A stretch of DNA of 39,548 nt, taken from the IMG/VR virus record IMGVR_UViG_2519899835_000008. The stretch is one strand, 5' to 3'. Positions 11,472 to 27,566 of this stretch are shown piece by piece (positions within the stretch are counted from its first letter, which is position 1; the number at the start of each line of letters is the position of its first letter). Below the pieces are notes generated by a model that was given only the letters and a program-made list of their open reading frames with translations, searched no databases and had not been told where the DNA came from. The stretch comes from a virus. Taxonomy: Duplodnaviria; Heunggongvirae; Uroviricota; Caudoviricetes. A program made the position numbers and the translations under genes.

Positions 11472-12825
11472 TAATCACCTCCACTGAATGGCCTCCGGGA
11501 ATGAACAGCGGATCAACAATACCGTTACGGCGCACAAAACGTTGCCAGCCGGTACTGTTCCCGGTGGCACGGTACAGGGTCACCAGTGCAGGCTCGGTGG
11601 TACGTACAGTCACTACTGTTGCACCGGGTAGCTGAACTCCCCGTGTATTCAGATCCTCTGTCAGTGCCAGTCTGGCATCACGAAGCGTCAGCGCCGTGGC
11701 GGTATACCCCTGCCCGGACAGTGTCATCACCTGCCGTTCGAGCGCTTCGCTTAAGTCACGGTTAATGCGCTGAAGATCAACTGAACTTTCCAGCCAGACA
11801 GGCCAGGTACGGTGGGCTGCGTCACTGTCCGGCAGGGTTTCCTGACTGAGAACCTGATCCAGCAGTTTTCCCACGGTCTGTGCCTGGGCCACCACGGCAG
11901 CACTCTGCATTACCGCCCGTATCAGACGAATATTCTTTTGTGCTGCCGGTGTCAGACCGATGAGAGTCTGCGGATTATCCTGCTCATCCAGCACGTAACG
12001 CAGGGAAGATAATGTCCTGTACAGTTGCGGCATTCCCTGAGAGACGGCGGATGTCGTCCGACCGATACTGCCTCCGGGCCGGGTATTCAGGCCTCCTGAA
12101 GACAGTGACGGCAGCGATGGCAGGGTGATCAGGGCACTGAAAAGCCCCGCAAAAGATGAGGCCATGCGGGAAGGTGCTGTCAGTAATGCCGTGGCATTCC
12201 CTTTCAGCGCCGTGAACGTGGCAGTAAAGGCACTGATATCCTGTACAATCCCCATGCCGGAAACGGCATTTTCCAGGGCGGACACCTTATCGCTGATGGT
12301 TTCGGTCATTGCCTGGACATCGTGCATTCCGTCAGAAATCACCGTCCAGCCCGCTTCCAGGGTTTCAAAAACCTTCCCGAGCGCGGTGGTACTCTTCTGC
12401 TCCAGAATGGCGGCCGTGTCCTGTGTGACAGCAGGTGCGGTATCATCACTTACCGGCGTGACATTAATGGTGAACTCAACCACGCCCTGTTCAGCAGCGT
12501 TATAACGACTTTCAAAGCTGTTTATCAGCACATTTAACGTGCCGTAATCCGGGTGAAGCAGCTCCCCGGCACCGGGAGCACGAAGGGCATCACGCAGACG
12601 ATTTCGCTGTGTCTGAACATCATCCCCCATCACAAGTACACTGAACGTAAATTCAGCCAGTTTAGGTCCCAGATCGTCTGCACCACCGGTTTCCCGTAAC
12701 GGATACTCCCGACGGACAATGTTTCGCCCGCCACGTTCGCGCTGCTCACGCCAGACGAGGAACGGCACACCACGGAACGCACCACGACCGTCACCAGAGG
12801 CCATAATTCCCTCCGTTCCAGACAT
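11455..12825 (-). CDS. DNA circulation protein N-like (Mu gp43-like)
   Basis: 456-aa ORF directly downstream of the tape measure gene; start may be the Met at about 12804. Confidence 0.55.
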   Translation of the reverse strand: MSGTEGIMASGDGRGAFRGVPFLVWREQRERGGRNIVRREYPLRETGGADDLGPKLAEFTFSVLVMGDDVQTQRNRLRDALRAPGAGELLHPDYGTLNVLINSFESRYNAAEQGVVEFTINVTPVSDDTAPAVTQDTAAILEQKSTTALGKVFETLEAGWTVISDGMHDVQAMTETISDKVSALENAVSGMGIVQDISAFTATFTALKGNATALLTAPSRMASSFAGLFSALITLPSLPSLSSGGLNTRPGGSIGRTTSAVSQGMPQLYRTLSSLRYVLDEQDNPQTLIGLTPAAQKNIRLIRAVMQSAAVVAQAQTVGKLLDQVLSQETLPDSDAAHRTWPVWLESSVDLQRINRDLSEALERQVMTLSGQGYTATALTLRDARLALTEDLNTRGVQLPGATVVTVRTTEPALVTLYRATGNSTGWQRFVRRNGIVDPLFIPGGHSVEVISEQQG

Positions 12826-14866
12826 TCACATCCAGTCCGTGACCGGACGTGTCATCAATATCAATACTGCGAGCCTGCCACCCTTCCGGGGCAACCAGCT
12901 CCACACGGGCAGAGGCTTTTTGTACCGCCTGTCCACTGCTTTCATCATCACTGCCCCGTAATTTCTGCCAGGCTTCAGTCAGCCATCCCCCCAGATAGTT
13001 ACCGAGATAGCTGCCCACCGTAGAACCAATGGCAATCCCCACAGGTCCGGCTGCCGCCCCCAGCGCACCACCGGCAATACTGCCTGCAAGAGAGCCGACC
13101 GCTTCTCCCTTGTCTGTGGCACTGGCGCTGCCATCCAGCAGAACCGGGGCTGCCATCGCGCCAGCCCACAGGGCACCTCCACCCAGCCGGCCGGCCAGTC
13201 CACCGGCACTGCGGAAAAAGCCGGAGAAACGCCCCAGCCCCATGCGGCTACCGACAGACGAAAGTAACCCACCGGCGCGCCCCATCATGCGCCCCCAGAA
13301 CCCTGCCCCACCAGAAGAGGGAGACGGTGGCACTGGGGACGGTGGCAGGGGGGGCGTGACCGGTCTTCCGCGCCCCGGTCCGCGTTTCCTGCGGCCCCGC
13401 CCCTGACGTCCGCCTGAGGATGTATCGGTCGCGCCGGTGCCGGACAGTCCTCCTGTGGGCCAGTTTGTTACAAGTACTGGCTGAACGGCTGCCGGATTTA
13501 CCCCGGTAAGAAAGTTTATAAAACGTTGCCCTCGTCCCTGAGATGTGCCTGGTGGTGTTCCGGCCGGAGGAGAGCGCCGGAAAGGTGAGGTCAGGAAGGC
13601 CGCCGCTGATAATCCGTATCCCAGCAATGCAGCACCCGGACGTATAATCCCCGTTCCGACAGCTCGCGCCATTTTCAGGGCACGGGTGGCGAGATACATG
13701 TACAGCAGGTATTTCGCGGCGGTCTGTGCCCCCTGACCAATGCGATCCAGCGCATCACCATAGCCCGCATCCCGCAGAGCCTGAAGCGTGTCGCGTACCT
13801 TTCTGATCGCCTGATAAAACCCTGTCACTGCATCACGGGCATACTCAAAGCCCTGGTTCATGGCTGATGCCGTGCTTTCCGCCAGGGAATGGTAACTGCC
13901 ATCAGATTTGGCACTGTCAACCCATGAAAGAAATCCCCTGAGATTACCCTTCAGTTTTTCAAATGGCCCACTGTCCATCACATCCCGGGCAAACTGGTCC
14001 CAGACGTCACCCATCATGGCCGTCAGGCCACTCCAGGAATTCATTGCGTCCTTTTGTGCTCCCCTGGCCTGTTCCGCCAGCGTCTGAAATAACAGGCGAA
14101 TACTGTCCGGCCCAAGCAGCCCTTTTTCACCAAGTTTTCTGACCACTTTCTGGTCCACACCCAGACGATCAGCCAGCACGCGGTAGGCATTAATGCCGTA
14201 GGTGGCAAGAATATTTGCATCCGCCGCCTGAATACTGCCTCTTGCATACATCTGTTTCAGTTGCAGGGATGCCCCCTGTGCATCGGACAGTGACCAGCCG
14301 CCCACGGCACCCTGATCCTGAAGCATGGTGACAAAATTTCGGGCCTCCCTGTCACTCATACCAAAGCCCAGACTGGACGTATATTCCTGCATGACGCCAG
14401 CCAGCCCCCAGGTGGTTTCCTTCGCATTCTGTATTGCCCACCTGCGGACATCATCAGTTTTCGCCCGATCCCCTTTGTAAAGGGAGTTCAGGCGAATCAT
14501 ATAGGTTTCCATCTCCGCTGCCGGGCGAATAAATCCCCGGTTAAAGCCATATACAGCAGCACCACCGGCCAGCATTCCGTAAAGATTGCTGATCCGCCCG
14601 ATGGTGCCGGTAATACTGCCCTGAAGACGGTCAAAATCAGAAGTGACATGGCGGATACTGCCCCGCACCCCGGCCAGCGTGCGCTGCATCCTGCTTCCGA
14701 GTACATCTGTTTCCTGCCCGGCACGGCGGGCAGCATTTCCCAGGCCACCCAGCCCCGCCTGGCCGGAGCGTGAGAATGCCCCCAGCTCCTGTGACCACTG
14801 GCGGGATTTGGCTGAGATATTGCCGAGCAAATCAACTATCAGAGATGCTCTGAGATTTCGGGCCAT
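12791..14866 (-). CDS. Tail tape measure protein
   Basis: 691-aa ORF between tail chaperone and baseplate genes; Gly/Ala-rich hydrophobic C-terminal region and Pro/Gly/Arg-rich low-complexity stretch. Confidence 0.75.
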   Translation of the reverse strand: MARNLRASLIVDLLGNISAKSRQWSQELGAFSRSGQAGLGGLGNAARRAGQETDVLGSRMQRTLAGVRGSIRHVTSDFDRLQGSITGTIGRISNLYGMLAGGAAVYGFNRGFIRPAAEMETYMIRLNSLYKGDRAKTDDVRRWAIQNAKETTWGLAGVMQEYTSSLGFGMSDREARNFVTMLQDQGAVGGWSLSDAQGASLQLKQMYARGSIQAADANILATYGINAYRVLADRLGVDQKVVRKLGEKGLLGPDSIRLLFQTLAEQARGAQKDAMNSWSGLTAMMGDVWDQFARDVMDSGPFEKLKGNLRGFLSWVDSAKSDGSYHSLAESTASAMNQGFEYARDAVTGFYQAIRKVRDTLQALRDAGYGDALDRIGQGAQTAAKYLLYMYLATRALKMARAVGTGIIRPGAALLGYGLSAAAFLTSPFRRSPPAGTPPGTSQGRGQRFINFLTGVNPAAVQPVLVTNWPTGGLSGTGATDTSSGGRQGRGRRKRGPGRGRPVTPPLPPSPVPPSPSSGGAGFWGRMMGRAGGLLSSVGSRMGLGRFSGFFRSAGGLAGRLGGGALWAGAMAAPVLLDGSASATDKGEAVGSLAGSIAGGALGAAAGPVGIAIGSTVGSYLGNYLGGWLTEAWQKLRGSDDESSGQAVQKASARVELVAPEGWQARSIDIDDTSGHGLDVNVWNGGNYGLW

Positions 14867-14992
14867 ACTTACTGCTTCGTTCTGATGATTTTTTCTGTCT
14901 GTCGGCAGTGCCGGTAAAGTTGCGACAGGGGGAGGTTAAGCGCCCATTCCGGACCGCTTTTTGTCACCATCCCTAGGATAATTGCCGCTTCT

Positions 14993-15487
14993 TCAATCTG
15001 ATCCCGACACTGCGCCTGATCGCCCCCGGTCAGCTGCCAGCTTTCCGGCAAGCGCGGTATCCAGCAGGCTGACCGCTGCCATCAGGCGGGAGAGATCGCG
15101 CTCGCTTAACTGTCCAATCTGACGGGGTGACAACGGACCTTCAATGTCTCCCACTGCGGCAATCTGACGGCGCAGCAGTGCAACACCGCGTAACGACGGA
15201 GACGCTATCAGCATCGGGCCATTGTTTGTCTCCACCACGCGCTCGGCTTCTGCTTCTGCGTCAATACTGTCTTTCGCTGTCAGTTCCCGGAACGTGACAC
15301 GATATTCACGGGTCTCACCAAACGGCAGACCATCAAGCAGATCCACATATCCCTTTGCCAGTTGCTCTGTCAGCCCGGCAGTGCGTGGATCAGCCCCCTC
15401 AAGTGCTTCCCGGATTGCCTCCATCACGGCTGCCTCGGAAACTGCCGTTTTTTTCTTACGTGTGGTCATTTTATTTTTCCTGATCAC
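14993..15487 (-). CDS. Tail assembly chaperone (Mu gp41-like)
   Basis: 164-aa acidic ORF between tail tube and tape measure genes; overlapped at its 3' end by a +1-frame ORF (14869-15051). Confidence 0.55.
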   Translation of the reverse strand: MIRKNKMTTRKKKTAVSEAAVMEAIREALEGADPRTAGLTEQLAKGYVDLLDGLPFGETREYRVTFRELTAKDSIDAEAEAERVVETNNGPMLIASPSLRGVALLRRQIAAVGDIEGPLSPRQIGQLSERDLSRLMAAVSLLDTALAGKLAADRGRSGAVSGSD

Positions 15488-15849
15488 TGAACACGGGTAC
15501 TGGAGGCGCTGGCGAACTTCACGGAGATCTCCCCGCCACCGTCAAGCGAGGCCGGTTCACTGCTCCAGGCCTTCGTCATCATGTGGACTTCACCGGTATC
15601 GGCCACGAACTCAATCGTGACCGCAGTCCAGGTGTTGATTTCATCGGCAGCCGGTGAACCTTCTCCGCCAGCCGGAAATTTACAGTCCAGCGTCGCCTCA
15701 CGGGGTTTCTCGCGATAGCCGTAGACTTTCGCGCCTTTCACCACTTCACGCTCAAAGCCGGACGGGGAGAACGTGGCTCCCTCAAGGGTGGCGTACTCCT
15801 GTCCGTTCACACGGATGGTGGCCGTGCCCTGATACTGTTTTCCGCTCAT
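15484..15849 (-). CDS. Tail tube protein (Mu M/gp40-like)
   Basis: 121-aa ORF immediately downstream of the sheath gene; size matches Mu tube protein. Confidence 0.7.
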   Translation of the reverse strand: MSGKQYQGTATIRVNGQEYATLEGATFSPSGFEREVVKGAKVYGYREKPREATLDCKFPAGGEGSPAADEINTWTAVTIEFVADTGEVHMMTKAWSSEPASLDGGGEISVKFASASSTRVQ

Positions 15850-15857
15850 GCCTTACC

Positions 15858-17360
15858 TCACAAAATGAAACGGATCTGCGCGGCCATGAAGCGGAACTGG
15901 TTAACCAGATCCGGTGTACACATCACATCCAGACGGTTACGGTCTTTTGTGTTGCGCTCCACGAGCAGATTCTTTTTAAAGGTGTCCAGATTTTCGACCA
16001 GTCCCAGATCCACCCATTCTTCCCCCAGTGCAATCAGCTGGAGCGTCATAATCTCCGGCGTCACGATATTCTGACCGGGCCGGACGGGAGTACCGTTATC
16101 GGCCAGTTTGTGGCGCGGGAAACGCTGCGTGATAAAGGTGCGCAGAGAATAACGCAGATATGACAGGGTGTAGATGGTTTCCACATCCAGATAGCTGGGA
16201 TCGCTTTCGCCGTATGCATTCTGACGGTACATCGTCACCTGACGTTCAATCTGCACCACATCAGCGGCCGCGACGGTCACCGTGGACATGCCGGTATAAA
16301 GCAGGCTGTTTCGTTCTTCCCGCGTCAGACGAGCCGGTGCTTCAGGTGCCATACGGGCAGGCAGCGCCAGTGTCTGTAATGGTCGGGCCGGATCCGTTGA
16401 CAGGGAGGGCGCACAGACCGCACAAATGGAGGCCGCCCAGACATAATCCGGCTCTGGTGCTTTAGGAATAGAAGTGCAGGTAAACAGGAAGTCATTACGG
16501 GATTCACCAAAACTGGTTGCCGTACCGAAGGTGCCGGTATGCGCCATCCAGACCATACCGTCCGACATTTTTACCGGTCCCCAGCGTTTCAGCAGTTCAT
16601 CCGCCAGAATTTTGAGATTTGCCGCATCCTTATAGGGCATGACGATGTAGTTGTACTGACGATTCCCCATCCCTGAGACGCTACGGGTGATATCGGGGTT
16701 TGTTGCCTTCTGTGTTGGCGCGACGAGCTCCAGCGTAAGACCGGCCGGTGTAGTTTCACCGTCATAATAGTTCACCCGTAAATCATGAGCTGAGCATTCA
16801 CCGATAAAGCGGGCGTTAACCCCCATGCTGCCTTTAAGTCCTTCAGCATTATCACCACTGACTTCAGCTGCGATAGCAGTGAATGGCGCATCAGTGTCAG
16901 CGTTAATGACCTTAACCAGCTCTTCCACAAGCTCTTTACCTTTTTTCCCCTTACTGACGGGCAGGAGGTAACGGCGACCGCCGATGTAAACACTTAATAC
17001 CCCGTCTGCCAATGCTGTTCCAATGATATTCATCACGCATGCCCTGGACTGACCTGTTCCAGCCCCCTGTGCAATGGCATATAACTCTGTGTCAGGGTTA
17101 ATGGCGATAAATTCCTCTACCATCAGTGCAATCATGGAACCTCGCCCCCAGAGTTCTCTTGCTTGTGAAGCTCGGGTAATACGTACTGGTACATCAAGCT
17201 GACCGCGCCCCTGAATGGTAGTGTCTTTCATTGCAGCCTGACCAAACAACAGTACCGCCTGACGCTGTGGTGGAGTGCCGGTCACGGCCATTGAATTATT
17301 GATTTCAATCTGTACCAGCGGAATGCGATTGTTATCGCCGATATAATCAAAGTTAATCAT
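15858..17360 (-). CDS. Contractile tail sheath protein (Mu L/gp39-like)
   Basis: 500-aa ORF; size and position upstream of tube gene match myovirus sheath. Confidence 0.75.
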   Translation of the reverse strand: MINFDYIGDNNRIPLVQIEINNSMAVTGTPPQRQAVLLFGQAAMKDTTIQGRGQLDVPVRITRASQARELWGRGSMIALMVEEFIAINPDTELYAIAQGAGTGQSRACVMNIIGTALADGVLSVYIGGRRYLLPVSKGKKGKELVEELVKVINADTDAPFTAIAAEVSGDNAEGLKGSMGVNARFIGECSAHDLRVNYYDGETTPAGLTLELVAPTQKATNPDITRSVSGMGNRQYNYIVMPYKDAANLKILADELLKRWGPVKMSDGMVWMAHTGTFGTATSFGESRNDFLFTCTSIPKAPEPDYVWAASICAVCAPSLSTDPARPLQTLALPARMAPEAPARLTREERNSLLYTGMSTVTVAAADVVQIERQVTMYRQNAYGESDPSYLDVETIYTLSYLRYSLRTFITQRFPRHKLADNGTPVRPGQNIVTPEIMTLQLIALGEEWVDLGLVENLDTFKKNLLVERNTKDRNRLDVMCTPDLVNQFRFMAAQIRFIL

Positions 17361-23196: not shown

Positions 23197-24769
23197 CCAG
23201 CATCCCCTTCATTTCCGCAGCAAACATGGCATCACTGAGCAGCGTCATCAGGCGGGAATCATCCATTTCACGATAAAGGGCAGGCAGGTCTGCCAGCGCA
23301 TCCGCCAGCCCCCGCGTTCTGATGGCATCAATGACCGGCTCCAGTACCGGGTCGATGGCCTCCTGTAAGCGGCGGGCAGGCACCGCGTCCCCCATATCAT
23401 CCAGTTCATCACGCGGCGTGCTTTTCGCTTCCGGCAGTCTGGCTGACAGCGCCGTCTGCTCTGTTTTTTCCTGTTTTTCCGGTGGTGTTTCCCTGTCGGT
23501 CTGAGCCGGTTCATTGCCACTCTGACGGACACGGAATATGGCTTCACCGGGCGTGGGCTGCGGAATACCGGTCTGCTCACGTATCCAGGGATCAGAAATA
23601 TCCATCCCCGTACTGAGCTGCATCACCGCACTGGTGATTTTGGTGATATCACCTGGTTCTTTTGTCTGGAAGCAGATACGTGGCAGACGGCGGATATCAA
23701 TAGTGTGCGTGGTGTTCAGGGCGTACAGCGGATACACCAGATCGCGGTTCAGGGTTGCAGCCAGCTGTCGTAAATCAGAATCCCTGATTTCCCGGCGCAC
23801 CTCGTTATGTACCTCACCCAGTGAGCGCGCGCCTTTGTCTCCGGCTTCCGTGGTCAGCGTGCCGCCGAGTATTGCTTTGGAGATGGAACGCTCCCCCCAC
23901 GAAATCATGGTTTCAAACGGATCGGCCTGACCGTTCGCTGCCGCCTGAAACTCCAGCGACATCCCGGCCGGGATGATCCCGCCTGTACGTCGCCCGATAT
24001 CCATCACCGCCCGCATCAGGGCACTTTTCTGCTCCGGTGTTGCCCCGGACGGGTATTTCCCGACCTTCATCGGCAGGCCGTACACCTCCAGAAATTCCGC
24101 CAGATCGCGCACGGAATAGTTTTTGAAAATGAACGGCCAGATAAGCGTCCGGACAAGCCCGGTTGCACCACCGTAACCGGTGCGTGAACGCGACTGATGC
24201 ACTATCCAGCCAAAGGGCTGAAACGCCACCCCGGAATGGCTGCCGTCACGCAGCCGCAGTTCGCTCAAATCATCCGGGTTAAGGCAGAAATGCCCGCTGT
24301 CACGCCAGCGGATGGCGCGGATGATGTGCATTTTACCGAGCATCCCGTGCTCAATTTCCATGCAGGAATAGCCCTTCAGGATGGCATCCGTGGCGTCAAA
24401 CAGCATGGCATCAAACCAGTCTGCGGAATGCAGATATTCGTCGAGCATTTCCGCGTCCTTTTTCTCATTCGCGCTGGCGTTCGGTGGCGGCTCAATACTC
24501 CATGGCACCCCCTGAATGGCAAGACGTCGCTTGCCCAGCTCCGCAAAAAGGTGGGTGTCCTTTTCTTCAATATCAGCGGCCAGATCGGACTGGGCAATCA
24601 GATCGCCACGTTCAGCCCCGCGAAGGCACTGCGCCGCCCGGTTCGGGGTGATACCCGAAGCCGGATGTTCAATATAACGGCTGGCAATCTGCGGAATATC
24701 CAGCGCGGCACTCTGCATCTCCGGGTCAAAGGAGAAAGGTTTTCCGTCAGTATCAATGATGCGTCCCAC
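23180..24769 (-). CDS. Portal protein (Mu H/gp29-like)
   Basis: 529-aa ORF immediately downstream of terminase large subunit. Confidence 0.75.
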   Translation of the reverse strand: MGRIIDTDGKPFSFDPEMQSAALDIPQIASRYIEHPASGITPNRAAQCLRGAERGDLIAQSDLAADIEEKDTHLFAELGKRRLAIQGVPWSIEPPPNASANEKKDAEMLDEYLHSADWFDAMLFDATDAILKGYSCMEIEHGMLGKMHIIRAIRWRDSGHFCLNPDDLSELRLRDGSHSGVAFQPFGWIVHQSRSRTGYGGATGLVRTLIWPFIFKNYSVRDLAEFLEVYGLPMKVGKYPSGATPEQKSALMRAVMDIGRRTGGIIPAGMSLEFQAAANGQADPFETMISWGERSISKAILGGTLTTEAGDKGARSLGEVHNEVRREIRDSDLRQLAATLNRDLVYPLYALNTTHTIDIRRLPRICFQTKEPGDITKITSAVMQLSTGMDISDPWIREQTGIPQPTPGEAIFRVRQSGNEPAQTDRETPPEKQEKTEQTALSARLPEAKSTPRDELDDMGDAVPARRLQEAIDPVLEPVIDAIRTRGLADALADLPALYREMDDSRLMTLLSDAMFAAEMKGMLDGSGD

Positions 24770-26433
24770 TACCAGCCCCCCCGATCAAATTCATGATATG
24801 CCTCATCGTCATCACGATAACCGCCCTCCATTGCCCGCGACCGCTCCGGTAGCGCCTGACAGGCTGATTCATCCAGGATGAAACCCTCCATGTATGACGC
24901 CCGGTTTGCCATACAGAGTGCCACGGCAAAATCACCATGGCGGCGGGCGTTCGCAGCCGTTGCGTTCTGGTCCTTCGTGCGCCCCTTGTCGATTTGCGGG
25001 ATACCATTCACCACCTTCACATGGCGCAAATCATCAAGCGTGGTCTGATGGCGGGCGACGAGGATATTCTGATCTTCAAACTCGGCTTTCAGTTTTGGCA
25101 TCCACTCGCCGTACCACTTCGGCGACAACATCACGCAGTCGATGATGTCCGGGCCAAAGGCCAGCAGTGCGGCCTCTGCCAGATAGCCGCCGTTACCGGT
25201 GGCGTCGAACGCCGCACCGACCAGCGCCGGAACGCGGGTCAGGATGTACATCATCACCTGTTCCTGCTGGGCATACGGCAGGTTGCGCAGCTCCACGCGA
25301 AACACCTCGCGCTTTGCCAGGAGTTCGGTGATTTCCAGCAGCACAAAGCAGGACAGGTCACCGGTGCGGGCAAAGTCTTCCCCGAAGCTGAAGCGGGAAC
25401 GGGGATTTAATTTCTCTGTAAGCGGTTTTAAATGTTCTTCACACCAGGTTAAAACTTCCGATTCACGCAGCCATGCGGCACGGCTGATGAAGTCGTCCGG
25501 GGCTTCAAACGTCAGAATCGGGATGTCACGAATCATCGCCATTTCAATAAGCGCGTGAGGAATATAGGCACCGCCGGATTTTTTCGGGATACAGCCGTAT
25601 TCCTCGTCGGCATCCTCACGGGTCGGGGCGTTTTTGTAGAGATCATCACGCCATTTCTGCTCGCTTTCCGGTGACCATTCCTGATCGGTGACGTAACAGA
25701 TACGACGGTACAGCCCGTCCGCAATGGCATCATCCAGGGTTATGCGGTGGACGCTGTAATCCTTGCGCCCCTCGCGGGCTTCCTGAATGTACTGATTAAA
25801 CAGATTATCGACGCCGTTATGCGTGGAAATAATGCGCACGCGTGCGCCCCACATGGTAAGCGCCATTGCCGCCTTGAGAAGCTCATCCAGTGACTCGTGG
25901 AACGCGGCTTCATCAATCACCACATCCCCCTGAAGACCGCGCAGGTTTGACGGACGGGAAGACAATGCCTGAATTTTGAATCCACTGTTCGGAAAGCGGA
26001 TCATGTAGGTCAGAATTTCTTCTTTTTTATCCCGATCCCAGAATGTCTGCTCATACACATCAGCATCTGCCAGCTGGTTAAAGGCACGGGAGAACAGCGC
26101 GCAGGCAGAAATATATTCCAGCGCCATCTCCTGTTTTGACCCCACATAAAACACATTACGGCCACCACGACGCTTAGGCTTTGCGGCGGTAATGACGTTA
26201 CGCCCGGCTTCCGCCCAGGTAAGCCCGGTGCGTCGGGATTTCTCCGCGATGCAGACCTGACTTTCATCTGCAAACCAGCGGGCCTGATAATCCAGAAACA
26301 CCGGCATATCACCGGGCAAATCAAGGCTGTCCGGCACATCCACGCCCAGCAGGGCTTTTTCACCGGACAGATCAATTTTGCGGGGAGGTGTCATTTGTAT
26401 CAGTGAAGGAGACTTTTCTTTGGCTTTGTTCAT
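24769..26433 (-). CDS. Terminase large subunit
   Basis: 554-aa ORF upstream of portal; size and position match Mu gp28. Confidence 0.75.
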   Translation of the reverse strand: MNKAKEKSPSLIQMTPPRKIDLSGEKALLGVDVPDSLDLPGDMPVFLDYQARWFADESQVCIAEKSRRTGLTWAEAGRNVITAAKPKRRGGRNVFYVGSKQEMALEYISACALFSRAFNQLADADVYEQTFWDRDKKEEILTYMIRFPNSGFKIQALSSRPSNLRGLQGDVVIDEAAFHESLDELLKAAMALTMWGARVRIISTHNGVDNLFNQYIQEAREGRKDYSVHRITLDDAIADGLYRRICYVTDQEWSPESEQKWRDDLYKNAPTREDADEEYGCIPKKSGGAYIPHALIEMAMIRDIPILTFEAPDDFISRAAWLRESEVLTWCEEHLKPLTEKLNPRSRFSFGEDFARTGDLSCFVLLEITELLAKREVFRVELRNLPYAQQEQVMMYILTRVPALVGAAFDATGNGGYLAEAALLAFGPDIIDCVMLSPKWYGEWMPKLKAEFEDQNILVARHQTTLDDLRHVKVVNGIPQIDKGRTKDQNATAANARRHGDFAVALCMANRASYMEGFILDESACQALPERSRAMEGGYRDDDEAYHEFDRGGW

Positions 26434-26681
26434 CAGGCTTTACCTGTCAGAATGCTTTTGATTCGGAACTCAAGCTCTTCAGTCATCACGTCCACGCCAC
26501 TCAACTCATCAGTGACAGCCCCTGCCAGCAGCGAATGCAGTTGTTCCAGGGATATTTCCCCGGCAATGCTGAGTTCAGTCAACTCACGACACGCTTTTAT
26601 GGTTTCAGGAGGTAACTGTGTTGCAAGACTGAATGCCTTCTGATGAGCACTGCTCATCAGTGAGCGGTTATCTGTTACCAC
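26433..26681 (-). CDS. Hypothetical protein whose C-terminus is paralogous to the terminase small subunit C-terminus
   Basis: GTG start with AGGAGG ribosome-binding site 6 nt upstream; C-terminus AVTDELSGVDVMTEELEFRIKSILTGKA parallels AVTDELRGVDGMSEQIEFRIRQMLLGKA of the upstream gene. Confidence 0.55.
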   Translation of the reverse strand: MVTDNRSLMSSAHQKAFSLATQLPPETIKACRELTELSIAGEISLEQLHSLLAGAVTDELSGVDVMTEELEFRIKSILTGKA

Positions 26682-26691
26682 GATTCACCTC

Positions 26692-27273
26692 CTACGCCTT
26701 ACCAAGCAGCATCTGCCTGATACGGAATTCTATCTGCTCGCTCATGCCATCCACGCCGCGCAACTCGTCGGTGACGGCGTTCGCCATCTCTTCAGCAAAT
26801 GCGGCCCGGATTTCTTTTTCACGCTTAATGCTGCGCTCGGCGGCACTTTCCGCACGCTGTGCCGACAGGAGGATGTCCTTAATAAGGCGCATATCCACAT
26901 CGCTGTCGCTGTTCAGGGATTCGGTGGCGGCACGCAGACGGCGGTACATCAGGGCACGGGACATCTCCAGAATCAGTGCCGTGGTTTCACCGGTCGGCTT
27001 ATCCCCCAGTTCGGCCATCATGGCTTTTGTCTGCTCGCGTAAATCACGCAGATTACGGGCAATCAGCTCATTACGGGAGGCTTCCCGGCTGATGGCCGCC
27101 GGTGAAAGCTGCTGCTCTTCCGGCAGGCCTGCCTCACGGATCAGACGGTTGATTTCCTCGCGGATCTGGACCTGCGTCAGGCGTTTTTCACGCAGCATTT
27201 CCAGCAGCGGCTTACGGATGCTGTCGGGGAGCAAATCCACCTTGCGTACACGGCCACGCGTCGGCTTATCCAT
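26692..27273 (-). CDS. Terminase small subunit (Mu gp27-like)
   Basis: 193-aa ORF with basic N-terminus and helical body, directly upstream of the large subunit. Confidence 0.65.
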   Translation of the reverse strand: MDKPTRGRVRKVDLLPDSIRKPLLEMLREKRLTQVQIREEINRLIREAGLPEEQQLSPAAISREASRNELIARNLRDLREQTKAMMAELGDKPTGETTALILEMSRALMYRRLRAATESLNSDSDVDMRLIKDILLSAQRAESAAERSIKREKEIRAAFAEEMANAVTDELRGVDGMSEQIEFRIRQMLLGKA

Positions 27274-27275
27274 CG

Positions 27276-27566
27276 TTACCCCCTTGCGCGTGGTTTCTTC
27301 ACACCCGGAACAGTGGCACGACCTTCCGCCACATCCTGACCCCGGCCGGTCAGTTCAGCGATGAAATAACCGTTAACAAGCGTGCGCTTACGCACCAGTC
27401 CCTGCTCAGCAAGCCAGGCAATGTGGGTGTGAACGGTGTCGCGGGACACGCGGTGGCCGTAATCATCCAGGCAGTCCTGAAGCACGGATTCGCCCAGTTC
27501 GCCGTTGTAATCCGCCAGCGACCGCAGAATGACAAGACGCTGATCTTCAGTAATGAAATCACTCAT
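27276..27566 (-). CDS. Hypothetical protein, Mu gp26-like
   Basis: 96-aa ORF in syntenic position between lysis and terminase genes. Confidence 0.45.
   Translation of the reverse strand: MSDFITEDQRLVILRSLADYNGELGESVLQDCLDDYGHRVSRDTVHTHIAWLAEQGLVRKRTLVNGYFIAELTGRGQDVAEGRATVPGVKKPRARG

What the first reader, a model, noticed from the sequence alone, without database searches (positions are those of the whole stretch)
14869..15487. Possible programmed frameshift extension of the tail assembly chaperone
The chaperone-position gene is overlapped for ~59 nt by a +1-frame ORF that runs 120 nt further and ends exactly at the tape measure start. This resembles the conserved chaperone frameshift of tailed phages, although the direction (+1 or -2 rather than -1) is atypical and I could not identify a canonical slippery heptamer.
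Basis: inference. Interest (0 to 1): 0.35.

Follow-up and report, generated by a model that had tools for sequence, protein, structure and literature searches.

The report
Mu-type -2 frameshift in tail chaperone
This Mu-like E. coli prophage carries the same ribosome "slip back two bases" signal (GG GGG CGA) that phage Mu uses to make a longer version of its tail assembly chaperone, so the finding is real but is an already known mechanism that genome annotation missed here.

Summary
On the minus strand a Mu gp41-family tail assembly chaperone (15469..14993) is overlapped by a +1/-2-frame open stretch (15081..14872, stop 14871..14869). That stretch ends 2 nt before the tape measure ATG (14866).

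It is C GGG GGC GA, read CGG GGG CGA in the zero frame at 15028..15020. This is the same 9 nt, in the same register, as the experimentally verified -2 site of phage Mu.

Homology to Mu in the new frame starts at this site (52% identity, E=1e-11). Of 123 loci found by chaperone homology alone, 118 have xxG GGG CGA in this register followed by a 46-52-codon extension. The other five are truncated, degraded or fused by a one-G loss.

Across 28 diverged lineages only about five codons around the motif are open in both frames. No downstream RNA structure or conserved flank was found.

The predicted fusion product is about 200 aa and was not tested here. RefSeq leaves the 126-nt gap unannotated.

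Verdict: a new, unannotated member of a known kind; low interest.

The parts
15484..15849 (-). Tail tube protein gene (121 aa), immediately upstream of the chaperone
   Evidence: PF10618 Tail_tube, E=8e-31. RefSeq calls it 'phage tail tube protein'.
14993..15469 (-). Short (zero-frame) tail assembly chaperone, 158 aa, Mu gp41 homologue. An alternative GTG start at 15487 would give 164 aa.
   Evidence: PF23746 Gp41_Mu E=7e-32 and PF10109 Phage_TAC_7 E=1e-5. phrog_508 'tail assembly chaperone' E=1e-46. 49% identity to Mu gp41. RefSeq CDS WP_000213225.1 uses the ATG.
15020..15028 (-). Shift site, 5'-C GGG GGC GA-3', read as CGG (15028-15026), GGG (15025-15023), CGA (15022-15020) in the zero frame
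   Evidence: Read directly from the sequence. Identical 9-mer and register in Mu. xxG GGG CGA is present in the same register in 118 of 123 homology-found loci.
14869..15024 (-). Extension in the -2 (+1) frame: GGC 15024-15022, GAT 15021-15019 ... AAG CAG 14877-14872, stop TAA 14871-14869. About 50 aa are added after the slip.
   Evidence: tblastn to Mu 23955-24098: 52% identity, E=1e-11, starting at the shift site. phrog_12783 E=1e-36 over its full length. The frame is open in all 118 loci, and the extension is 46-52 aa in 28 lineages.
14872..15081 (-). Whole stretch open in the +1/-2 frame (70 codons). The part upstream of 15024 is probably not translated in this frame.
   Evidence: In relatives the +1 frame carries stops up to 4 codons before the site.
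12791..14866 (-). Tape measure protein gene (691 aa). Its ATG lies 2 nt after the extension's stop.
   Evidence: PF20155 TMP_3, E=2e-18. RefSeq calls it 'tape measure protein'.

Best explanation
This is the Mu-type programmed -2 ribosomal frameshift of the tail assembly chaperone gene, the Mu counterpart of lambda G/GT.

Most ribosomes read the gp41-like gene to its TGA at 14995..14993 and make the 158-aa chaperone. A minority slip back two nucleotides on CGG GGG CGA (15028..15020), with tRNA-Gly on GGG in the P site and tRNA-Arg(ICG) on the rare CGA codon in the A site. After the slip they occupy GGG and GGC. Reading continues with GAT and 49 further codons to TAA 14871..14869. The product is a fusion of about 200 aa: residues 1-150 of the chaperone plus a 50-aa C-terminal domain.

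By analogy with lambda gpG/gpGT, both forms would coat the tape measure protein through the shared N-terminal part. The rarer extended form would recruit the tube protein. Neither would end up in the virion.

Shown here: the anatomy, the homology of both parts to Mu, the identity of the slip site, and its conservation in register. Taken from the literature: that Mu shifts by -2 at this site, and the reported efficiencies. Inferred only: that this prophage does the same, the exact junction residue, and the roles of the two forms.
For: 1. Position. The feature lies between the tube gene and the TMP gene in a complete Mu-like prophage with MuA, MuB, Mu portal, MuF, protease I and gpT.

2. Upstream gene. 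It matches PF23746 Gp41_Mu at E=7e-32.

3. Slip site. CGGGGGCGA is identical to Mu in sequence and zero-frame register (window GAC CGG GGG CGA TCA; Mu GAA CGG GGG CGA GTG). Mu CDS Mu_56 is annotated 'verified -2 translational frameshift in PMID 15469818'. PMC3458567 describes 'tandem -2 slippage on GG GGG CGA' with A-site tRNA-Arg 3'GCI5'. PMC5009743 lists Mu among the -2 cases. PMC3498833 gives an efficiency of about 2.2%, and a 2025 preprint measured 14% in a cell-free system.

4. Extension. It matches Mu's extension only from residue 18 of the open frame, which is TGGD at the site (52% identity, E=1e-11). It also matches phrog_12783 end to end (E=1e-36).

5. Conservation across relatives found by chaperone homology, not by the motif:
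- 118 of 123 loci carry xxG GGG CGA in this register with at least 30 open codons in the new frame.
- The five exceptions are two cut contigs, two degraded copies, and one locus with a single G fewer that fuses the two parts directly.

6. Pattern across 28 lineages (<80% identical around the site):
- The extension is 46-52 aa, while the zero-frame tail after CGA varies from 0 to 9 aa.
- Only codons -3 to +1 around the motif are stop-free in both frames in all lineages.
- 13 of 28, including Mu, have no ATG/GTG/TTG in the new frame before the site.

7. Nucleotide-level selection:
- The G before GGG is invariant even where the codon's amino acid changes (CGG, AGG, AAG, TCG, GAG, GGG).
- Invariant Arg, Gly and Pro residues elsewhere in the same genes use 3-6 synonymous codons and the invariant Gln both of its two, whereas the site uses only GGG and CGA.
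- CGA makes up 6.3% of Arg codons in this window.
- Flanking nucleotides carry at most 1.4 bits of information.
Against: There is no experimental evidence for this prophage. No fusion peptide has been seen, and the efficiency is unknown.

The motif alone is not rarer than chance in the window (2 copies against 2.2 expected). A second copy sits in the same register inside the sheath gene.

No stimulatory RNA structure was found downstream (z=+0.57 in the window, -0.76 in Mu). No conserved upstream element was found either, so nothing beyond the 9-mer marks the site.

Part of the nucleotide invariance could come from dual coding (RGR in one frame, GGD/E in the other) rather than from slippage. 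The 28-lineage counts were anchored on GGGGCGA, so its invariance within that set is partly by construction.

Relatives with only four G (AAG/TCG/GAG GGG CGA) cannot fully re-pair the P-site tRNA after a -2 slip. This leaves a +1 slip possible in those lineages.
Confidence: 0.86

Rival explanations
1. The frame change is a +1 slip, not -2. Peptidyl-tRNA-Gly moves from GGG to GGC while the A site waits on the slow CGA codon. The extension is the same, but the fusion is one residue shorter (…DRG-DQAQ…).
For: CGA is a rare codon here (6.3% of Arg codons). Relatives with four G (AAG/TCG/GAG GGG CGA) lack perfect -2 re-pairing. Sequences with one G fewer encode exactly this +1-type fusion as a plain ORF (L091, L125, P0099-P0101).
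Against: For the identical 9-mer in Mu, the shift is recorded as a verified -2. The base two positions upstream of the GGG codon's end (N3 = G) is invariant across amino-acid changes. That base matters for a -2 slip but is irrelevant to a +1 slip.
Confidence: 0.07
2. The small ORF is a separate gene started at TTG 15051 (60 aa), as gp41.5 is annotated in phage D108, with no recoding.
For: A TTG start exists in the window. D108 records list '41.5' as its own protein. phrog_12783 is built from such stand-alone annotations.
Against: There is no Shine-Dalgarno sequence before the TTG (one search lists the upstream 15 nt). In 13 of 28 lineages, including Mu, no start codon exists in that frame before the shift site, and the first one can be as late as codon 28 of about 50. 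Homology in this frame begins at the motif, not at the TTG. The Mu product is a verified fusion.
Confidence: 0.04
3. RNA polymerase slippage on the G5 run makes a fraction of mRNAs with one G fewer or two more, and these encode the fusion directly.
For: A homopolymer lies at the site. Assemblies with one G fewer exist.
Against: Known transcriptional slippage sites, by general knowledge of the field, use longer A or T runs. Four-G variants keep the arrangement. At least one of the shorter-run assemblies has other single-base gaps typical of sequencing error (3 gaps and 0 mismatches in 1201 nt). The conserved CGA after the run has no role in this model.
Confidence: 0.02
4. The open frame is a chance one in a non-coding spacer, and only the short chaperone is made.
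For: The octamer frequency is at chance in this window. RefSeq annotates nothing in the gap.
Against: The frame is open and 46-52 codons long in all 118 loci. Its amino-acid sequence is conserved down to 33% chaperone identity, while the other two frames are full of stops.
Confidence: 0.01

Closest known systems
Phage Mu gp41 / gp41-41.5 fusion (GenBank AF083977: Mu_41 and Mu_56), the -2 programmed frameshift of Xu, Hendrix & Duda 2004 (PMID 15469818)
   Same: Same gene position (tube, chaperone, TMP). Same protein family for the chaperone (PF23746; 49% identity) and for the extension (52% identity). The identical 9-nt site CGG GGG CGA lies in the same register. The extension is the same length (50 aa after the slip) and stops just before the TMP start.
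   Different: About half of the residues differ and there is no detectable nucleotide similarity to Mu. The window's chaperone has a longer N-terminus (158 against 144 aa). Its zero-frame tail after the site is 8 aa against 6, and its +1 frame happens to be open 19 codons upstream against 4. There are no experimental data for this prophage, and its extension is not annotated.
Lambda gpG/gpGT and P2 gpE/gpE+E' tail assembly chaperone frameshifts
   Same: Same logic and position: two products share an N-terminus, the gene lies between the major tail or tube gene and the TMP gene, and the longer form is made by low-level recoding (PMC5009743). There is a weak family link to P2 E (PF10109, E=1e-5).
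   Different: Those are -1 slips on X XXY YYZ heptamers. Here the -1 frame is closed and the slip is -2 on a G run plus CGA. The extension has no detectable similarity to any Pfam family, including the P2 E' family.
Mu-like prophages and phages with an unannotated extension (SfMu, D108, Yersinia vB_YpM phages, Vibrio martha 12B12, Shewanella MuM16-2, Pasteurella Pmp9, Alteromonadaceae B23)
   Same: All have GGGGGCGA in register and a 107-144-nt gap before the TMP gene that is filled by the +1/-2 frame.
   Different: These are host-range and sequence variants. Some lineages have four G instead of five, or a stop directly after CGA.

Membership tests
Mu-type -2 frameshifted tail assembly chaperone (gp41 / gp41-41.5) | The gene lies between the tail tube gene and the tape measure gene of a contractile-tailed Mu-like phage | tested here: met
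   Order is sheath, tube, chaperone, TMP. The window has a Mu-like genome content.
Mu-type -2 frameshifted tail assembly chaperone (gp41 / gp41-41.5) | The upstream ORF belongs to the Mu gp41 family | tested here: met
   PF23746: E=7e-32, 110 bits against a cut-off of 27, with the full profile covered. tblastn to Mu gives 49% identity, E=2e-26.
Mu-type -2 frameshifted tail assembly chaperone (gp41 / gp41-41.5) | [quoted passage not shown] | tested here: met
   CGG GGG CGA at 15028..15020, 8 codons before the stop. Mu has the same register. The site is as described in PMC3458567.
Mu-type -2 frameshifted tail assembly chaperone (gp41 / gp41-41.5) | The -2/+1 frame is open from the site to just before the TMP start and encodes a homologue of Mu's extension | tested here: met
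   51 codons run from GGC to TAA, and the stop lies 2 nt before the TMP ATG. 52% identity to Mu, E=1e-11. phrog_12783 E=1e-36.
Mu-type -2 frameshifted tail assembly chaperone (gp41 / gp41-41.5) | A fusion protein is actually produced, with a junction showing a -2 slip | not testable with these tools
   This needs expression and mass spectrometry. It is known only for Mu.
Mu-type -2 frameshifted tail assembly chaperone (gp41 / gp41-41.5) | Both forms are required for tail assembly and are absent from virions | not testable with these tools
   Inferred from lambda G/GT (PMC5009743). The Mu cryo-EM study could not resolve gp41 (PMC11915804).
Canonical -1 G/GT-type frameshift (lambda, P2) | An X XXY YYZ heptamer, with the extension in the -1 frame | tested here: not met
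   There is no heptamer in the overlap. The -1 frame stops 20 nt past the chaperone stop.
Canonical -1 G/GT-type frameshift (lambda, P2) | A stimulatory downstream RNA structure (present in some members) | tested here: not met
   The 90 nt after the site fold no better than shuffles, in the window (z=+0.57) and in Mu (z=-0.76).

The most novel reading that the evidence does not exclude
The comparative set may show what the only known natural bacterial -2 signal really needs. The invariant core is G GGG CGA, not the full G5 run.

Three lineages carry AAG, TCG or GAG before GGG CGA, so the P-site tRNA-Gly cannot fully re-pair after a -2 slip. One lineage has a stop codon directly after CGA.

This would mean either of two things. 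The A-site tRNA-Arg(ICG) moving from CGA to GGC could be the driver of the -2 slip. Alternatively, some Mu-like phages may have switched to a +1 slip at the same place.

For the window itself the reading stays the ordinary Mu one.
Probability: 0.25. Interest if true: 0.4.

Novelty: new member of a known kind. Interest (0 to 1): 0.15.

Why it matters
The value is mainly in annotation. The extended chaperone is missing from the RefSeq annotation of the copy inspected; the prophage is present in 230 of 5426 complete E. coli genomes. It is also missing from several deposited Mu-like phage genomes. PHROGs lists the extension as a family of unknown function.

Biologically it adds nothing new to the Mu paradigm. 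It does show that the -2 signal is conserved from Escherichia to Vibrio, Shewanella, Pasteurella and Marinobacter. It also gives a set of natural site variants that could be used to dissect the -2 mechanism.

Tried and rejected
- A first scan of genome contigs with the single protein found no relatives. An alignment-based scan then worked.
- Nucleotide search against phage records found only two Stx-phage records carrying an inserted Mu-like phage, and not Mu itself. Protein-level search was needed.
- Downstream stem-loop or pseudoknot: nothing beyond shuffled controls.
- Conserved flanking nucleotides, or a Shine-Dalgarno-like stimulator: none, at most 1.4 bits outside the motif.
- Pfam gave no hit for the extension even at E up to 10. 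NCBIfam gave no hit for the fusion. PDB sequence search gave nothing meaningful (best E=0.25).
- An AlphaFold2 model of a natural fusion (P0001, with a 4-sequence alignment) was poor: mean pLDDT 57. The extension came out helical at pLDDT about 70-80. I did not run fold searches on it.
- The Xu et al. 2004 paper itself is not in the held library. The Mu mechanism is therefore cited second-hand.
- I considered P0001 (an E. coli protein with an RGD junction) as natural proof of translation across the junction. I rejected it because its contig differs from the window by three single-base gaps and no mismatches in 1201 nt, which looks like homopolymer sequencing error.

Full report
**What is there**

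The window is a complete Mu-like transposable prophage. It encodes MuA, MuB, a Mu portal, MuF, protease I, major head gpT and a DNA circularisation protein. The tail genes are on the minus strand:
- sheath, 17360..15858
- tube, 15849..15484
- a 158-aa protein, 15469..14993
- tape measure protein (TMP), 14866..12791

The 158-aa protein matches Pfam Gp41_Mu (PF23746, E=7e-32), more weakly Phage_TAC_7, and phrog_508 'tail assembly chaperone'.

A stretch in the +1 (= -2) frame is open from 15081 to 14872 and stops at TAA 14871..14869. That stop is 2 nt before the TMP ATG.

The only corrections are that the frame is open 30 nt further upstream, and that it ends 2 nt before the TMP start rather than at it. 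The -1 frame closes 20 nt after the chaperone stop.

**The slip site**

Inside the overlap the minus strand reads GCT GAC CGG GGG CGA TCA. CGG GGG CGA lies at 15028..15020.

Phage Mu, fetched through a protein-level search, reads CAA GAA CGG GGG CGA GTG at the equivalent place. It has the same 9 nt in the same zero-frame register.

The current Mu GenBank record carries a two-piece CDS, Mu_56. It is labelled 'verified -2 translational frameshift in PMID 15469818; tail assembly chaperone frameshift product'.

The literature agrees:
- Lin et al. 2012 (PMC3458567) describe 'tandem -2 slippage on a GG GGG CGA'. The A-site tRNA-Arg (3'GCI5') pairs better in the -2 frame than in the -1 frame.
- Atkins et al. 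2016 (PMC5009743) list Mu among the -2 cases.
- Firth et al. 2012 (PMC3498833) quote an efficiency of about 2.2%.
- A 2025 preprint measured 14% for the Mu site in a cell-free system.

The original paper is not in the held library.

**The extension is homologous to Mu's, starting at the site**

tblastn of the 70-codon open frame against phage records matches Mu, SfMu, D108 and Yersinia Mu-like phages at 50-52% identity (E about 1e-11). The match covers residues 18-65 only. Residue 18 is the T of TGGD, the reading of ACC GGG GGC GAT across the motif.

The 50 residues after the site match phrog_12783 end to end (E=1e-36). That family has 'unknown function' and is evidently built from stand-alone annotations such as D108 gp41.5.

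**Conservation in relatives**

I collected relatives by homology to the chaperone only. The sources were 8 phage records, 80 IMG/VR loci and 34 bacterial genome loci. These make 122 loci, or 123 sequences counting the window itself.

The other five are:
- two contigs cut short (L081, L121)
- two degraded copies in one Klebsiella genome (L105, L122)
- Erwinia tracheiphila L091, where the run has one G fewer and the chaperone and extension form one plain ORF

After collapsing to 28 lineages (<80% identity around the site; chaperone identity to the window down to 33%):
- The codon before GGG is CGG in 23 lineages, and AGG, AAG, TCG, GAG and GGG once each. Its third base is always G although the amino acid varies.
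- The extension is 46-52 aa, while the zero-frame tail after CGA varies from 0 to 9 aa.
- Stops occur in the new frame up to 4 codons before the site, and in the zero frame from 2 codons after it. Only about five codons around the motif are open in both frames in every lineage.
- In 13 of 28 lineages, Mu included, the new frame has no ATG/GTG/TTG before the site.

Invariant Arg, Gly and Pro residues elsewhere in the same genes use three to six synonymous codons across these lineages, and the invariant Gln uses both of its two. The site uses only GGG and CGA. CGA accounts for 6.3% of Arg codons in the window.

Outside the 9-mer no nucleotide column exceeds 1.4 bits.

Two caveats apply. The 28-lineage set was anchored on GGGGCGA, so its invariance there is partly by construction. 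Dual coding (RGR and GGD/E) also constrains these bases. The invariant third base of a variable codon is the observation least affected by either caveat.

**No other signal**

The 90 nt after the site fold no better than shuffled sequence, in the window (z=+0.57) or in Mu (z=-0.76).

The octamer by itself is at chance frequency in the window (2 found, 2.2 expected).

**Mechanism proposed**

With GGG in the P site and the rare CGA in the A site, the tRNAs slip back two bases to GGG and GGC. Reading resumes at GAT (15021..15019) and runs to TAA 14871..14869.

The product has 150 + 50 = 200 aa counted from ATG 15469. The junction would be ...AADRGR-DQAQCR if both tRNAs slip. It would be ...AADRGG-DQAQCR if only the P-site tRNA slips before the A site fills.

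The roles of the two forms are inferred from lambda G/GT (PMC5009743). The shared part binds the tape measure protein, and the extension recruits the tube protein. These roles were not tested here.

An AlphaFold2 model of a naturally fused relative was of low confidence (mean pLDDT 57). It showed the extension as helices at pLDDT about 70-80, and I drew nothing further from it.

**Rivals**

- A +1 slip at the same place gives the same frame and cannot be excluded by sequence. It is disfavoured by the Mu experiments and by the invariant G two bases upstream.
- A separate start at TTG 15051 is disfavoured. There is no ribosome-binding site, there are no start codons in many relatives, and homology starts at the motif.
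- Transcriptional slippage on five G is unlikely.
- A chance ORF is excluded by conservation.

**Status and novelty**

The same DNA (95-100% identity) occurs in 196 complete E. coli genome records. Including the more distant copies, it is found in 230 of 5426 genomes.

RefSeq annotates only 'phage tail assembly protein' and leaves the 126-nt gap before the TMP gene empty. Several deposited Mu-like phage genomes do the same.

The finding is therefore correct, and it is an unannotated new member of a well-known kind. It is not a new mechanism.

Noticed in passing
window 17142-17150 (- strand), inside the sheath gene: A second GGGGGCGA lies in the same codon register as the shift site (TGG GGG CGA = W G R in ...ELWGRGS...). 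A -2 slip there would meet TGA after three codons (GAG GTT CCA TGA) and give a truncated sheath fragment. The octamer count is at chance level, and I did not check whether this copy is conserved or avoided in relatives.
   Followed up: partly
L017-L020; L028, L031, L090, L092; L068, L084, L101, L103 (about 1530-1650 in each locus): Natural four-G variants of the shift site. AAG GGG CGA occurs in the window's closest non-E. coli relatives (80% identical chaperone). TCG GGG CGA occurs in Sodalis and Pantoea. GAG GGG CGA TAG occurs in Xenorhabdus, with the stop directly after CGA. The P-site tRNA cannot fully re-pair after a -2 slip in these.
   Followed up: partly
L091:1547 (Erwinia tracheiphila), L125:1007 (Logan ERR1010218), P0099-P0101, P0001/L124:920: Sequences with CGGGGCGA (one G fewer) in which the chaperone and extension are one continuous ORF (junction RGE or RGD). 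L124 differs from the window by three single-base gaps and no mismatches in 1201 nt, so it is probably a homopolymer sequencing error. The status of the others is unknown.
   Followed up: partly
window 14872-14992 and the equivalent gaps in L004-L008, L123: The 107-126-nt gap between the chaperone and TMP genes is left unannotated in RefSeq E. coli genomes and in several GenBank Mu-like phage records. PHROGs lists the extension as phrog_12783, 'unknown function'.
   Followed up: yes
window 3043-5097 (- strand): A 684-aa protein in the tail-fibre region has a SASA carbohydrate (sialate O-acetyl) esterase domain (E=1.5e-13) and a C-terminal DUF6645 (E=4e-67). It may be a receptor-modifying tail fibre or spike.
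   Followed up: no
window 24769-26433 (- strand) and 26633-27364 (+ strand): A 554-aa protein sits in the position of the large terminase, and a 243-aa plus-strand protein sits in an otherwise minus-strand genome. Neither gave a Pfam hit at E<=0.001.
   Followed up: no
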